Sequence record: NC_028881.1 | DNA: 64,000 bases | Reading direction: 5' to 3' (one strand) | Source of the DNA: Escherichia phage vb_EcoM-VR5 | In this document: positions 14,662 through 54,535 of the stretch, piece by piece | How positions within the stretch are numbered: the stretch's first letter is position 1 | How the letters are laid out: each line of letters starts with the position of its first letter | Made by a program: the position numbers and the translations under genes | Notes under the pieces: model-generated | Database searches by the model: none | What the model saw: the letters and a program-made list of their open reading frames with translations, nothing else | Told to the model about the DNA's origin: nothing

Positions 14662-15183
14662 TTAATAACCTCGGTCCTGACGAGCAAAGTTCTCGGCATT
14701 TTTCAGGTAATACAGTTTAAAGATTTCTTCAGCAGTAAGTCCAAGACCCTGGAACATGTTCAGAACGAAATGGAGAATATCAATCATTTCAAATTTAATT
14801 TCGAGCTGGTCTTCAGGAGAGAGTTCGTCGATACGACGATTACGGAATTCAGCATGCTGAGCTTTCCAAGGCTTCCAGCAACTTGAAGCAGCTTTCTCAC
14901 CATTGCTCATACCACCAAGAGAAGTCAGAAGTTCACGGAATTCATCATCAATATAATCTTTCTGATTACGCAGCCAATCAACAACTTCACCTGCAGTAGC
15001 CAAATCATCAGGGTGACGGTTATATTCAGGTTTATCTTTAGCCAAACGGACCTGTAAAGATTTCTGCATATCAAGCATAACCTGCAGTGGGTCTTTATCT
15101 TCGTGAATCAAGGCATTAAAATAAGCTTCCTCAGCTTTATCAACGCCAGCAATCAAACCACTACACTCATTAAAATGTGCCAT
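14662..15183 (-). CDS. 56: dCTP pyrophosphatase (gp56, MazG-like)
   Basis: 173-aa ORF; size and position as T4 gene 56; RBS AGGAAA. Confidence 0.8.
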   Translation of the reverse strand: MAHFNECSGLIAGVDKAEEAYFNALIHEDKDPLQVMLDMQKSLQVRLAKDKPEYNRHPDDLATAGEVVDWLRNQKDYIDDEFRELLTSLGGMSNGEKAASSCWKPWKAQHAEFRNRRIDELSPEDQLEIKFEMIDILHFVLNMFQGLGLTAEEIFKLYYLKNAENFARQDRGY

Positions 15184-15187
15184 TATA

Positions 15188-15844
15188 TTATTTCCTATTA
15201 AAGTTTTCTATCATTCGTCGATAACAAATATCAGGATATCCATTATCGACAGCTATTTTATTAAATTTGGTGCGTTTAGGTTTATTATTATAAACCCATA
15301 ATTCATAAAGCGCATCATAACTATCCCATATTTCTCCTCGCCTAGGATTTGGTAAACCGTATCGAGGTGAATTTTTACCGCTAAATCTTCCTTTTCGAGC
15401 TTTACTCATATTAGCCTTGGCTTCATCGGATATAATTTTATCTTTATGAGCTAGACGCATTTTGGCTTTAGTTTCTTCTGGGGTCTTTTTGCCTTTAATC
15501 CATGACGGCTTGCCATATCTAGGATTATTTTCACCTGTAACTAATAGTGAATTATTTTCCCTTAATGATGCTATAGTTCTGCTAGTTAATTTAACTCCTT
15601 TATTATATCTCATTAAATTAACGGCATGATGCAGACCTTTTACTTCAGGATACATTTTTGTTAAAAGCCTATGGGCTATAAAGTGCTCTCTTGGTAATAA
15701 AGCCACCAAATTATTTTTATCATCGGAACCATTCATACATTTGGGTACAATATGGTGTTCTTCTGTATAATATGGTAAGGACCGCTTGGTACCTCTTAAT
15801 TTTCCATTAGATATTAATTCATTGTATATTTTTTCATAGTTCAT
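15188..15844 (-). CDS. HNH homing endonuclease (freestanding, Mob-like) with NUMOD-type C-terminal DNA-binding repeats
   Basis: 218-aa ORF; HNH motif EEHHIVPKCMNG...NLVALLPREHFIAH; AT-rich; no SD upstream. Confidence 0.8.
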   Translation of the reverse strand: MNYEKIYNELISNGKLRGTKRSLPYYTEEHHIVPKCMNGSDDKNNLVALLPREHFIAHRLLTKMYPEVKGLHHAVNLMRYNKGVKLTSRTIASLRENNSLLVTGENNPRYGKPSWIKGKKTPEETKAKMRLAHKDKIISDEAKANMSKARKGRFSGKNSPRYGLPNPRRGEIWDSYDALYELWVYNNKPKRTKFNKIAVDNGYPDICYRRMIENFNRK

Positions 15845-15904
15845 GGGATAATTATAAACTGTTTAGATTAAAGCGAATAAATATTAATTTAACAGGAGGA
15901 TAAC

Positions 15905-16105
15905 ATGGGCAGTATTTTTTATCAAATCTGGAAATTGGCCGAAAAGAAAGACAAGAAAATGATGTTAGGTTTTCTTGCGCTAGACGTATTCCTTTGGAAT
16001 CTTTTAGTAGTCCCTGTAGCCGCTAGCCAAGGTGTAGTTTTACCAGCGGTTACAATGGAGCACGTGTTAAGCATAATTGGATTCTTTAGCGGAATTCCTG
16101 CCTAA
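15905..16105 (+). CDS. small hydrophobic membrane protein (66 aa), only plus-strand gene with expression signals
   Basis: ORF with strong SD AGGAGG 5 nt before ATG; late-promoter-like GAATAAATA upstream; convergent with gene 61. Confidence 0.5.
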   Translation: MGSIFYQIWKLAEKKDKKMMLGFLALDVFLWNLLVVPVAASQGVVLPAVTMEHVLSIIGFFSGIPA

Positions 16106-17130
16106 ATCTTGGAATATTTTGAAAGTCGCATTTTTGCCATTAAACCTTGTGCGATATTCTCTTTCATATAAGAAAGGACATCGTTTATATTGGCTTTATC
16201 TTTCATAACCATATCATTTATATCTTTAGAAGGCCATGGAGCCTTGTCCCAGAATAGAACCCTTTCACCGGCATCAACTAGACGTTGCATACGCTTAATT
16301 GTGTCAGGATGACGGGGTTCATTGTCCATTACCCATGCTCTTGTTTCTTTACATGGAACTATTGATAAGTCTAACGACCCACCAGTAATTGCTATTGCAT
16401 TAGGTACAAATAATGAATCTATAGGACCTTCCATTACCCACACCAACTGGCGTTCATCTATCGTATCCATTCCATATATTTTTGTAGCTTGGTCGTGAGC
16501 TTTAATTGTAATATATTTTTGCGGGGCATCTTTACGTAAAGCTCGACCCTGAAAGCTTTCAATTTGTTTATCCTTATTAAAAATAGGAATAACCAAACGA
16601 GGCTCAGGTATTTCTTTAGAATAGGTTCCTGGATTCACTGAGTTAACCAGCGCCGGCCACTCTTTCGTAAACCATAGTCTATTCCATTTGTTTTCGGGGA
16701 TGCATCGCAGAGTTACATATTTGATAATAGGATGGTCTTTAGGCATTCTATCTAATCGTTCACAGAAATTAAGCTTTTCGATGACAGGCATCTTAGCTTT
16801 AATTTTTTCAGATATCTCCACCTTAGGTGTAGCTTGTCTCCCGAACGATTGCTCTTTATGTTTCTCAAGAATATATTCTCGATATAAATCTGGCTCATAT
16901 TCGTATAGATACTTCTTAATTCCTGCTGAATAGTCACAATTAAAACAATGCAACATAATAGAACCATCGTTAGCCGGGTAAGCCCAAAATCGAGCTTTGT
17001 TCTCATCTTTTTGTGAGTCACCACATACACGACAACGACAGTTTAATTTAAAATCACTACCGGTTACTTGTCTGAATTTAGGTTGGTAATTCAAGGCACG
17101 TACAGCAAATTCTTTATCGACATATGACAT
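16102..17130 (-). CDS. 61: DNA primase (gp61)
   Basis: 342-aa ORF; zinc-binding CxxC...CxxC and TOPRIM region; length as T4 gp61. Confidence 0.9.
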   Translation of the reverse strand: MSYVDKEFAVRALNYQPKFRQVTGSDFKLNCRCRVCGDSQKDENKARFWAYPANDGSIMLHCFNCDYSAGIKKYLYEYEPDLYREYILEKHKEQSFGRQATPKVEISEKIKAKMPVIEKLNFCERLDRMPKDHPIIKYVTLRCIPENKWNRLWFTKEWPALVNSVNPGTYSKEIPEPRLVIPIFNKDKQIESFQGRALRKDAPQKYITIKAHDQATKIYGMDTIDERQLVWVMEGPIDSLFVPNAIAITGGSLDLSIVPCKETRAWVMDNEPRHPDTIKRMQRLVDAGERVLFWDKAPWPSKDINDMVMKDKANINDVLSYMKENIAQGLMAKMRLSKYSKI

Positions 17131-53237: not shown

Positions 53238-53810
53238 TCAACTCGTTATTTCTATCCAATGCTTCCTGCATAATGACACGTAAGAATCGTTGCCACCTAT
53301 AGAAACTTGGTCGCCATCCTTAATTGCGATACCATTTTGGATACGAGCTGTCATAGTAGCCTTACGTCCACAATGGCACACACCTTTGTACTCAACGAGT
53401 TTATCTGCTGTAGCTAATAATTCAGCAGAGCCAGGAAACAGTTTACCCTGAAAATCAGTTCTTAGACCGTAACACATGACCGGTATATTATAATTATCTA
53501 CTATCTTTGCCAATTGTTTTATTTGCAAAGGTTCTAAGAACTGTGCTTCATCCACAAATACGCAGTGGATATCTTTTTGAGATTCAGCCCAACGATAGAA
53601 CTCGTATAGGTCCATGTCTGGAGTCACTGCATTAGCCTCTTGGCTAATCCCTATACGAGACGAAATTCTATGGCTTGATTCTCTATTATCTATCGCAGGC
53701 TTTAAAAGGAGTACACCCATACCACGTTCTTTATAGTTATGGGCAGCCGTTAGCAATGAAGAGGTCTTCCCAGAATTCATCGCCGCATAGTGAAACATCA
53801 AACTTGCCAT
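53238..53810 (-). CDS. tk: thymidine kinase
   Basis: 190-aa ORF; P-loop AAMNSGKTS; C-terminal Cys cluster. Confidence 0.88.
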   Translation of the reverse strand: MASLMFHYAAMNSGKTSSLLTAAHNYKERGMGVLLLKPAIDNRESSHRISSRIGISQEANAVTPDMDLYEFYRWAESQKDIHCVFVDEAQFLEPLQIKQLAKIVDNYNIPVMCYGLRTDFQGKLFPGSAELLATADKLVEYKGVCHCGRKATMTARIQNGIAIKDGDQVSIGGNDSYVSLCRKHWIEITS

Positions 53811-54535
53811 TTAGATACAATTCCTCTATAAGAACAATCGGGATAACCTTTACTCAAGGCTATCTTTTTAAACATATACGCCGAGGGTTTATTAGATTCT
53901 TCCCATAGTATTTTCAATTCATCATAATATTTCCAAGTCTCATTTCTAATAGGAGAAGGTTTTCCTTTCATTGCGCCCTGTTTACCAAACATAGGATTCT
54001 TTTCACCCTTTTTAGAATCGCTCATGTTTTTAATAGTAGCACATGAATGCTTAAAGCCTTTTAATTTTTTAGAAGCGAGACCTATTTTAGCCTTATGTTC
54101 ATCCGTAAATCCTATTCTATTCGAATAGTGGTTTGCGCCTTTATTAGAAGTGGTATATTTAGAAGCTTCTATTCTCGCAGCACTCCATTTAACTCCTTTT
54201 TTGGACCTGGACATTTTACATTTAGTTAGCAATGATAACTTAGTTCCTTTCTTTTTGCCGCGTCCGCCATCGGCAAAATTTAAAGAATGCTTTCCATATT
54301 TTAATTTAGCTTTTTCTACTAAAGGAACTTCAGCATCGTAAGCTTCATCTTCAGTTTCAAAGAATTTTAATATACGGGTTTTATAAGGGTGCTTTTTGCA
54401 AATATTTTTAACAACAGTGCCACTTCCAAAATACCCATCAGAAAGATTATCAGTAGAATGTTTTCCTACGTAATAATATTTTGCCTTGAGGGTTTTTATT
54501 ACAGTTAAATAATTATAATGGAATTCCTTTACCAT
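53798..54535 (-). CDS. GIY-YIG homing endonuclease (Seg-like) with NUMOD-type C-terminal domain
   Basis: YYYVGKHS...GYFGSG N-terminal motif; C-terminus similar to HNH endonuclease at 15188-15844; RBS AAGAAGG. Confidence 0.75.
   Translation of the reverse strand: MVKEFHYNYLTVIKTLKAKYYYVGKHSTDNLSDGYFGSGTVVKNICKKHPYKTRILKFFETEDEAYDAEVPLVEKAKLKYGKHSLNFADGGRGKKKGTKLSLLTKCKMSRSKKGVKWSAARIEASKYTTSNKGANHYSNRIGFTDEHKAKIGLASKKLKGFKHSCATIKNMSDSKKGEKNPMFGKQGAMKGKPSPIRNETWKYYDELKILWEESNKPSAYMFKKIALSKGYPDCSYRGIVSKWQV

What the first reader, a model, noticed from the sequence alone, without database searches (positions are those of the whole stretch)
15188..15844. Freestanding HNH homing endonuclease inserted between genes 56 and 61
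An AT-rich 218-aa ORF carries an HNH motif and NUMOD-like C-terminal repeats. It has no Shine-Dalgarno sequence, which is common for tightly regulated homing endonucleases, and sits in an interval that differs from my recollection of T4. Likely a mobile gene with marker-exclusion potential.
Basis: partly seen in the sequence, partly recalled or inferred. Interest (0 to 1): 0.5.

Follow-up and report, generated by a model that had tools for sequence, protein, structure and literature searches.

The report
Mob-type HNH homing endonuclease gene
The ORF is a real, intact, selfish "homing endonuclease" gene of the well-known T4 Mob (HNH) type, sitting just upstream of the dCTPase gene 56 of a JS98-like coliphage; the same gene is already annotated in close relatives, so the finding is correct but ordinary.

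Summary
Observation and interpretation both hold. The 218-aa ORF lies at 15188-15844 on the minus strand, is AT-rich (32.6% GC against 39.0% for the window) and has no Shine-Dalgarno sequence. It carries an HNH motif (H30, H31, N45, H54, H58 invariant in 38 homologues) and two NUMOD3-like repeats.

It belongs to the T4 Mob family: MobD 35% over 248 aa, MobE 43% over the HNH half. The window is a Dhakavirus. IME08 annotates the orthologue as "mobE"; JS98 and most relatives have a clean empty site.

Orthologues occupy the same slot in Tequatrovirus and Klebsiella phages. Between those two, the gene is 94% identical in protein while flanking gp61 and gp56 are 62% and 79%. That indicates lateral transfer. 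dN/dS of 0.12 argues for a functional protein.

Corrections: the upstream neighbour is a small opposite-strand ORF, not gene 61. T4 carries dam in this slot. "mobE" is a loose label.

Inferred extras: the ATG lies exactly 6 nt after the −10 of the captured gene-56 middle-type promoter, so the mRNA may be leaderless. A second promoter-like element lies inside the gene. The first 30 nt of gene 56 are hyper-polymorphic in two of three carrier/empty-site lineage comparisons, which suggests the target or a co-conversion tract.

Nuclease activity, target site and homing were not tested. Low interest; already known kind.

The parts
15188..15844 (-). Free-standing Mob-type HNH homing endonuclease gene (218 aa plus stop)
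   Evidence: ORF. PHROG 655 E=1.2e-55. BLASTP to T4 MobD E=2.5e-36 and MobE E=7e-28. dN/dS 0.116 against IME08.
15671..15763 (-). HNH catalytic motif, aa 28-58 (EEHHIVPKCMNGSDDKNNLVALLPREHFIAH), predicted beta-beta-alpha
   Evidence: H30, H31, P34, G39, N45, H54 and H58 invariant in 38 homologues. Strands 28-31 and 46-49 plus helix 51-64 in AF2 models with pLDDT above 90. Aligns to the McrA HNH motif. 21 of 30 residues identical to T4 MobE.
15332..15538 (-). Two NUMOD3-like repeats (aa 103-134 and 137-171), a linker / minor-groove DNA-binding region
   Evidence: Pfam NUMOD3 E=2e-6, above cut-off, for aa 111-130. The second unit is seen by inspection. Helices 123-133 and 140-151 in the model.
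15191..15334 (-). C-terminal three-helix module (aa 171-218), putative helix-turn-helix DNA-binding domain, shared with T4 MobD and with the Seg-like ORF at 53798..54535
15197..15846 (-). The insert proper: 650 nt present here, where JS98 has 25 nt of gene-56 leader (TAACTTACTAACAAATGAATTGATA)
   Evidence: Pairwise alignment of window against JS98.
15851..15875 (-). Captured gene-56 middle-type promoter-like element: CGCTTTA (MotA-box-like), 12 nt, TATAAT. The -10 ends 6 nt before the HEG ATG.
   Evidence: Read from the sequence. The same element precedes gene 56 in HEG-less JS98 and QL01. The homologous element is annotated 'predicted middle promoter' in the fPS-90 record. Function is inferred, not shown.
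15287..15312 (-). Internal promoter-like element inside the HEG (CGCTTTA, 13 nt, TATAAT), 129 nt upstream of the gene 56 ATG; could drive gene 56 independently
   Evidence: Pattern scan. The element is conserved at the same position in IME08, fPS-90 and Roth20. Background is 24 such patterns on this strand in 64 kb. Inferred.
15191..15196 (-). Shine-Dalgarno sequence of gene 56 (AGGAAA), embedded in the last codons of the HEG. The HEG stop TAA lies 4 nt before the gene 56 ATG.
   Evidence: Sequence reading.
14662..15183 (-). Gene 56 (dCTPase/dUTPase), downstream neighbour and candidate target gene. Its first 30 nt (15154-15183) are hyper-polymorphic between HEG+ and HEG- relatives.
   Evidence: Family hits. 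12 and 8 mismatches in the first 30 nt against QL01 and JS98, and 9 for fPS-90 against L050; most other 30-nt windows have 0-4, apart from a separate divergent patch at nt 270-360 in the Dhakavirus pairs.
15905..16105 (+). Conserved 66-aa hydrophobic ORF on the opposite strand (phrog_2024), the true upstream neighbour of the HEG; overlaps the gene 61 stop by 4 nt
   Evidence: Substitutions fall at third-codon positions. A homologue is present in T4.
16102..17130 (-). Gene 61 (DNA primase), the conserved boundary of the variable interval
   Evidence: PHROG 47 E=7.8e-97. Annotated as gene 61 in relatives.

Best explanation
The ORF is an intact free-standing homing endonuclease gene of the T4 Mob family. 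It has an N-terminal HNH (beta-beta-alpha-metal) nuclease domain, two NUMOD3 repeats and a C-terminal three-helix DNA-binding module.

Shown here:
- It is an insertion of essentially just the ORF (650 nt) into the 5' leader of gene 56.
- It is absent from most close relatives, which have a precise empty site.
- It sits in the same slot in three phage genera, and has moved laterally between at least two of them.
- It evolves under purifying selection.

Inferred mechanism, by analogy with T4 MobE and I-HmuI:
- In a mixed infection with an endonuclease-less relative, the protein binds the conserved gene-56 leader and 5' coding region of the rival genome through its C-terminal modules.
- The HNH domain nicks or cleaves nearby.
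- Recombinational repair from the endonuclease-carrying genome copies the gene and a short stretch of flanking gene 56 into the rival. This gives super-Mendelian inheritance and local marker exclusion.
- The carrier's own genome is presumably protected by the disrupted leader and by the polymorphic first ~30 nt of gene 56.

Inferred expression:
- The gene has no promoter of its own. It uses the captured gene-56 middle-type promoter.
- In Dhakavirus the ATG falls at the predicted +1, so a leaderless or near-leaderless mRNA is predicted and translation should be low.
- A promoter-like element inside the ORF, together with the gene-56 SD inside its last codons, would keep gene 56 expressed.
For: ORF and motif.

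Homology to T4 MobD, MobE and MobC. MobE has been shown to make an HNH-motif-dependent strand-specific nick and to be inherited at high frequency (PMC2790892, read; review PMC2988022).

Empty site and exact junctions.

Same slot in Tequatrovirus fPS-90 and Klebsiella phage Roth20. Occupancy is 58 of 738 and 8 of 677 records.

Lateral transfer: HEG 94% aa / 92% nt identity between fPS-90 and Roth20, against gp61 62% / 67.5% and gp56 79% / 76%.

Purifying selection: dN/dS 0.116 (window vs IME08) and 0.097 (fPS-90 vs Roth20), comparable to gp56 at 0.094. This includes codons 1-70, at 0.14.

Structure: beta-beta-alpha topology in confident models. Top-ranked Foldseek hits are HNH nucleases.

Flank signature: mismatch spike confined to the first 30 nt of gene 56 in two of three lineages.

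Promoter geometry: TA(T/C)AAT-TATCCC-ATG is conserved in all five Dhakavirus copies examined.

No RNA hairpin occludes the start codon (z=+1.3).
Against: No activity, target site or inheritance bias was measured here; none can be measured with these tools.

In the Klebsiella lineage, HEG-less contigs L062 and L063 carry the same gene-56 5' allele as HEG+ Roth20. The polymorphic patch is therefore not a universal immunity mark.

Between Dhakavirus and the other genera, HEG identity (77-80%) is no higher than that of gp56. Vertical descent there cannot be excluded.

The lack of any TIR could mean very poor expression.
Confidence: 0.85

Rival explanations
1. A decaying or domesticated remnant. 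The gene arrived by homing in the past but no longer cuts or moves. It persists because it now carries signals needed by gene 56: the promoter context and the SD inside its 3' end.
For: There is no ribosome-binding site. Gene callers in ESCO10 and ABTNLS3 chose 5'-truncated ORFs. Gene 56's SD and a promoter-like element lie inside the ORF. Window and IME08 copies have diverged about as much as their flanks, at 88% vs 90% nt.
Against: The ORF is full length in all seven genomes inspected. All HNH residues are invariant. dN/dS is 0.12 overall and 0.14 over the N-terminal 70 codons that the truncated annotations omit. There was recent cross-genus transfer of the orthologue.
Confidence: 0.08
2. 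An HNH nuclease used mainly for another purpose rather than for its own propagation. Examples are inter-phage exclusion, degradation of foreign or host DNA, or a role in replication or recombination near the gene-56 origin region.
For: HNH domains serve many roles. T4 oriA maps inside gene 56 right next to this slot (T4 feature table). HEG nucleases have been implicated in partial exclusion between T-even phages (PMC2993671).
Against: The sporadic presence, precise empty sites and slot-specific cross-genus spread are the signature of homing, not of a conserved accessory function. Most relatives do without the gene. The architecture matches the Mob HEGs.
Confidence: 0.05
3. A chance or non-expressed ORF in AT-rich intergenic DNA.
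For: AT-rich sequence and no SD.
Against: Strong family matches, purifying selection, conservation across genera and a confident fold prediction.
Confidence: 0.01

Closest known systems
T4 MobE (free-standing HNH homing endonuclease between nrdA and nrdB)
   Same: The N-terminal HNH domain is homologous: 43% identity over 134 aa, E=7e-28, and 21 of 30 residues identical across the motif whose deletion abolishes MobE nicking. Both are promoter-less cassettes that depend on an upstream host-gene promoter and lack a recognisable TIR. IME08's orthologue is labelled mobE.
   Different: The locus differs (upstream of gene 56, not nrdA-nrdB). The protein is 218 aa, against 141 aa. It has NUMOD3 repeats and a C-terminal three-helix module that T4 MobE lacks. 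There is no overlap or coupling with an upstream ORF and no internal terminator on the coding strand. It is not an orthologue of mobE.
T4 MobD (free-standing HNH HEG between nrdC.11 and mobD.1; activity not determined)
   Same: This is the best full-length match: 35% over 248 aa, E=2.5e-36. It includes the N-terminal 30 residues (18 of 30) and the C-terminal module W-x-x-YD-LY-LW...KR..F......GYP...Y.
   Different: The central region differs: NUMOD3 repeats here, against a longer lysine-rich linker in MobD. The locus also differs.
I-HmuI / I-HmuII (intron-encoded HNH nicking homing endonucleases of Bacillus phages SPO1 and SP82)
   Same: The modular plan is the same: an N-terminal HNH nickase domain, an extended linker and a C-terminal helix-turn-helix DNA-binding domain. 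This rests on established knowledge cited in PMC2790892.
   Different: Those enzymes are intron-encoded rather than free-standing. No significant sequence or structure match was retrieved here.
T4 SegF (GIY-YIG/HNH-hybrid free-standing HEG between 56 and soc, which targets gene 56)
   Same: SegF occupies the other end of the same gene 56 and uses gene 56 as its homing target. Gene 56 is thus a known homing hot spot.
   Different: It belongs to an unrelated nuclease family and has a different insertion site. It is absent from this window.

Membership tests
HNH (beta-beta-alpha-metal) endonuclease superfamily | Conserved His (general base), Asn and His/His metal-ligand residues in the H-N-H spacing | tested here: met
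   H30, H31, N45, H54 and H58 are invariant in 38 homologues. The motif aligns residue-for-residue with the McrA HNH motif.
HNH (beta-beta-alpha-metal) endonuclease superfamily | Match to the curated Pfam HNH profile (PF01844) at its gathering score | tested here: inconclusive
   E=0.004 and 17.7 bits, against a cut-off of 21.4. This is a detection threshold rather than a defining property. Some homologues in the same alignment do carry precomputed PF01844 hits.
HNH (beta-beta-alpha-metal) endonuclease superfamily | Beta-beta-alpha fold around the motif | tested here: inconclusive
   AF2 models (pLDDT 90 for aa 1-100) give strand 28-31, strand 46-49 and helix 51-64. The Foldseek top hits are nearly all HNH nucleases (McrA, Gme HNH, Cascade-HNH, IscB, Cas9 HNH), but the best E is 0.19.
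HNH (beta-beta-alpha-metal) endonuclease superfamily | Metal-dependent DNA nicking or cleavage | not testable with these tools
   Requires enzymology or in vivo nick mapping.
T4 Mob-type free-standing homing endonucleases | N-terminal HNH domain homologous to T4 MobA-E, fused to a distinct C-terminal DNA-binding region | tested here: met
   BLASTP gives MobD 2.5e-36, MobE 7e-28, MobC 3.7e-16 and the MobA fragment 4.9e-8. The C-terminal region has NUMOD3 repeats and a three-helix module.
T4 Mob-type free-standing homing endonucleases | Free-standing between conserved genes, same orientation as its neighbours, and present or absent among close relatives with a precise empty site | tested here: met
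T4 Mob-type free-standing homing endonucleases | Evidence of lateral movement to the cognate site | tested here: met
   The HEG is 94% aa identical between fPS-90 and Roth20, against 62% and 79% for the flanking gp61 and gp56, and lies at the same junction in both.
T4 Mob-type free-standing homing endonucleases | Endonuclease-dependent super-Mendelian inheritance and co-conversion in mixed infection | not testable with these tools
   Only indirect evidence: a mismatch spike in the first 30 nt of gene 56 next to the insert.
Orthologue of T4 mobE specifically (as labelled in IME08) | nrdA-nrdB location and MobE-length protein without a C-terminal module | tested here: not met
   The locus is 61-56. 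The protein is 218 aa, against 141 aa. The best full-length match is MobD.
NUMOD3-containing nucleases | Pfam PF07460 above its gathering score | tested here: met
   28.0 bits against a cut-off of 20.4, E=2e-6.

The most novel reading that the evidence does not exclude
In the Dhakavirus copies the endonuclease gene has been fused to the captured gene-56 middle promoter. Its AUG then coincides with the predicted transcription start: -10 hexamer, 6 nt, ATG, conserved in 5 of 5 genomes with two different promoter variants. That would give a leaderless mRNA as a built-in throttle on a toxic nuclease. Orthologues in Tequatrovirus and Klebsiella phages instead duplicated the gene-56 Shine-Dalgarno sequence and use GTG. 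A promoter embedded in the endonuclease ORF would then compensate gene 56. I found no description of leaderless expression of a T4-type homing endonuclease in the library I searched.
Probability: 0.3. Interest if true: 0.35.

Novelty: already known. Interest (0 to 1): 0.2.

Why it matters
This adds a documented example, not a new principle. The gene-56 leader is a homing slot used by one Mob-type endonuclease in at least three genera of T4-like phages. Gene 56 is therefore flanked on both sides by homing sites, with SegF on the other side.

There is a practical consequence for annotation. Several GenBank records call this gene 'hypothetical', truncate it, or mislabel it 'mobE'.

If the leaderless-mRNA geometry is real, it would add a regulatory trick to the known repertoire by which phages keep such nucleases at low levels. 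Known examples are terminators, RBS hairpins and translational coupling.

It is also a convenient natural pair for homing and marker-exclusion experiments outside T4/T2: IME08 or ESCO10 against JS98.

Tried and rejected
- Sequence search of the PDB gave no meaningful hit. The best relevant match was the McrA HNH motif at E=0.21.
- NCBIfam gave nothing useful: IscB at E=0.05.
- I looked for an RNA hairpin sequestering the start codon, as in Aeh1 mobE. There is none; the region folds worse than shuffled sequence, z=+1.3.
- I looked for an intrinsic terminator between gene 61 and the ORF on the coding strand. None was found in this window, although the fPS-90 record annotates one.
- The sigma-70 scan was not enriched over shuffles, 13 hits against 9.9±3.3. 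The promoter argument therefore rests on the MotA-box-like element, its conservation and the fPS-90 annotation, not on that scan.
- I tested whether one gene-56 5' allele is diagnostic of HEG presence. It is not. All five HEG+ genomes have TGT-AGT at codons 7-8, but so do about 13 of 46 HEG-less loci, and L062 and L063 share Roth20's allele.
- The idea that the N-terminal 30 residues were swapped in from a MobD-like paralogue has only weak support (18/30 identities to MobD against 14/26 to fPS-90), and I do not claim it.
- The MAFFT alignment of HEG+ and HEG- loci mis-placed the left flank. I replaced it with pairwise alignments.
- Literature searches found no paper characterising this particular endonuclease.

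Full report
**Observation.**
- It is AT-rich: 32.6% GC, against 39.0% for the window and 37-41% for its neighbours.
- Residues 28-58 read EEHHIVPKCMNGSDDKNNLVALLPREHFIAH. Pfam HNH matches this only weakly, at E=0.004 and below the gathering score. NUMOD3 matches above its cut-off, at E=2e-6 for aa 111-130.
- PHROG 655 'homing endonuclease' matches end to end at E=1.2e-55.
- A second GxNxPRYG-plus-helix unit (aa ~137-171) is visible by eye, so 'NUMOD-like repeats' is fair.
- The sequence upstream of the ATG is ...CGCTTTAATCTAAACAGTTTATAATTATCCC-ATG and has no Shine-Dalgarno element.

**Surroundings.** Downstream on the same strand is gene 56, the dCTPase (14662..15183). The endonuclease stop codon lies 4 nt before the gene 56 ATG, and gene 56's SD (AGGAAA) lies inside the last endonuclease codons. 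Upstream, the immediate neighbour is not gene 61. It is a conserved 66-aa hydrophobic ORF on the opposite strand (15905..16105, phrog_2024, strong AGGAGG SD), which overlaps the stop of gene 61 (16102..17130) by 4 nt.

**Which phage, and who else has the gene.** The window is a JS98-like Dhakavirus.
- ESCO10 is 98% identical over this region and encodes a 100% identical protein. IME08 is 90.6% identical and annotates the orthologue (89% aa) as 'MobE homing endonuclease'.
- Only 8 of 677 matching phage records cover the ORF. JS98, JS10, QL01, WG01 and most others match in two pieces with the ORF missing.
- Pairwise alignment with JS98 defines the event. The 650 nt at 15197..15846, essentially just the ORF, stand where JS98 has 25 nt of gene-56 leader. 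The shared sequence resumes at ...TATAATTATC on one side and AGGAAA(T)AATATAATG on the other.
- T4 itself has dam in this slot and segF on the far side of gene 56. MX01 has dam plus another ORF, and AnYang has segF.
- Across 47 IMG/VR loci the 61-56 interval is hypervariable: empty, small ORF only, dam, dam plus orf28, this endonuclease, or unidentified ~1-kb inserts.

**Family.** BLASTP places the protein in the T4 Mob family.
- MobD: 35% over 248 aa, E=2.5e-36, covering both the N- and C-termini.
- MobE: 43% over 134 aa, E=7e-28, covering the HNH half only.
- MobC: E=3.7e-16. The MobA relic: E=4.9e-8.
- In a 38-sequence alignment of database homologues, H30, H31, P34, G39, N45, H54 and H58 are invariant.
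- AlphaFold models are confident for aa 1-100 (pLDDT 90). They show strand 28-31, strand 46-49 and helix 51-64, the beta-beta-alpha arrangement expected of HNH. Two helices in the NUMOD3 region and a C-terminal three-helix bundle follow.
- The IME08 label 'mobE' is loose. The locus is different, the protein is 77 residues longer, and the full-length resemblance is to MobD.

**Is it functional and mobile?** Several lines say yes.
- dN/dS between the window and IME08 copies is 0.116, and 0.14 for the first 70 codons. That is similar to gene 56 at 0.094. Between the fPS-90 and Roth20 copies it is 0.097. The full-length protein is therefore under purifying selection.
- Orthologues at 76-79% identity occupy the same slot in Tequatrovirus (fPS-90 and others) and in Klebsiella phages (Roth20 and others). 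58 of 738 records matching those flanks carry the gene in that context.
- The fPS-90 and Roth20 copies are 94% aa / 92% nt identical. Their flanking gp61 genes are 62% / 67.5% identical and their gp56 genes 79% / 76%. That discordance is direct comparative evidence for lateral transfer into the same site.
- Between Dhakavirus and the other genera, the endonuclease (77-80%) is no more conserved than gp56, so nothing can be concluded there.

**Junctions and expression (partly inferred).**
- In fPS-90 and Roth20 the gene sits between TGAATT and GAAAGGA of the gene-56 leader. GAAAGGA is present on both sides, so the endonuclease has its own AAGGA SD and a GTG start.
- In all five Dhakavirus copies examined the leader is gone. 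The ATG follows the -10 hexamer by exactly 6 nt (TA(T/C)AAT-TATCCC-ATG). A MotA-box-like (C/T)GCTTTA lies 11-12 nt upstream of the -10.
- The same promoter-like element precedes gene 56 in endonuclease-less JS98 and QL01. Its homologue is annotated as a predicted middle promoter in fPS-90.
- From established sigma-70 geometry, where +1 lies about 7 nt after the -10, the mRNA from this promoter would start at or within a few nt of the AUG. That is a leaderless or near-leaderless message. This is my inference and is untested.
- There is no hairpin over the start codon, no upstream same-strand ORF for translational coupling, and no terminator-like site between gene 61 and the ORF.
- A second element, CGCTTTA-N13-TATAAT, lies inside the ORF at 15287..15312, 129 nt before the gene 56 ATG. 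It is conserved in IME08, fPS-90 and Roth20. This fits the pattern described for T4, where promoters for displaced downstream genes are embedded in the endonuclease ORF (PMC2988022). The pattern is not rare, however: 24 occurrences on this strand in 64 kb.

**Where might it cut?** This cannot be determined here.
- The empty-site leader (…TGAATTGAAAGGAAA…ATGGCNCAYTTYAAYGAATG) is strikingly conserved across genera.
- In two of three lineages the carrier differs from its nearest endonuclease-less relative by 8-12 mismatches in the first 30 nt of gene 56. Most other 30-nt windows show 0-4, apart from a separate divergent patch at nt 270-360 in the two Dhakavirus comparisons. There is no spike on the upstream side.
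- fPS-90 and Roth20 share the first 26 nt of gene 56 and then revert to their own lineages' sequence. This looks like a short co-conversion tract.
- The arrangement resembles T4 MobE, which nicks a polymorphic patch next to a conserved block in nrdB (PMC2790892).
- The signal is not universal. HEG-less L062 and L063 share Roth20's allele.

**Verdict.** The finding is ordinary.
- It is a Mob-type free-standing HNH homing endonuclease gene, already annotated in IME08 and other relatives and belonging to a well-studied class.
- What remains unknown is biochemical: activity, target site and inheritance bias.
- The only mildly novel angle is the promoter-fused, possibly leaderless start in the Dhakavirus lineage.

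**Things tried that led nowhere:** sequence search of the PDB, NCBIfam, both fold searches, the generic promoter scan, the search for an RBS hairpin, a single diagnostic immunity allele, and a literature search for this specific enzyme.

Noticed in passing
window 15905-16105 (+); T4 NC_000866 17738-17938 (L006 4739-4939 +): A conserved 66-aa hydrophobic ORF (phrog_2024, strong AGGAGG SD) lies on the opposite strand to all its neighbours. It is convergent with gene 61 and overlaps its stop by 4 nt. Substitutions among relatives fall at third-codon positions. A homologue (E=4.6e-31 to the same PHROG) exists in T4 but is not in the T4 RefSeq feature table I was shown. ESCO10 has a 1-nt deletion in its A-run.
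   Followed up: partly
window 53798-54535 (-): A second free-standing homing-endonuclease-like gene lies immediately upstream of thymidine kinase (53238-53810). It encodes 245 aa and matches phrog_314 at E=1.6e-21 and NUMOD3 at E=2e-10. Its N-terminus looks Seg/GIY-YIG-like by eye; Pfam gave no GIY-YIG hit. Its C-terminal ~50 aa share the same module as the HNH ORF (32% over 148 aa), an example of DNA-binding-module sharing between nuclease classes.
   Followed up: partly
window 14824-14913 (gene 56 nt 270-360): A mosaic patch in the middle of gene 56 shows 8, 6 and 13 mismatches per 30 nt against QL01 (4, 7 and 13 against JS98). It separates segF-carrying phages (T4, AnYang, L061) from segF-less ones. 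The window has a segF-less allele and no segF between 56 and soc. This may correspond to the known SegF target region.
   Followed up: partly
window 15287-15312 (-): A MotA-box-like plus -10 element (CGCTTTA-N13-TATAAT) lies inside the endonuclease coding sequence, 129 nt upstream of gene 56. It is conserved at the same position in IME08, fPS-90 and Roth20. It may be an embedded promoter for gene 56.
   Followed up: partly
L002 (ESCO10) 1089-1556; L087 (ABTNLS3) 1027-1575: Two GenBank records annotate 5'-truncated versions of this gene (468 and 549 nt) that would lack the HNH motif, and ESCO10 calls it 'hypothetical'. The cause is probably that gene callers find no RBS at the true start. ESCO10's neighbouring product names (anti-sigma factor for gp56, helicase for gp61) also look wrong.
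   Followed up: yes
L013 / L078 (vB_EcoM_005, NC_055783 ~120-127 kb): This Dhakavirus record has duplicated and fragmented copies of genes 61 and 56 around the endonuclease, plus further HEG-like ORFs. This is either a mis-assembly or a genuinely rearranged HEG hot spot.
   Followed up: no
loci L053-L058, L074, L077, L081 (interval between gene 61 and gene 56): Other T4-like contigs carry unidentified inserts of about 0.7-1.2 kb in the same 61-56 interval. They matched none of the probes used (HNH, dam, segF, MX01 orf28). The slot is a general cargo hot spot.
   Followed up: no
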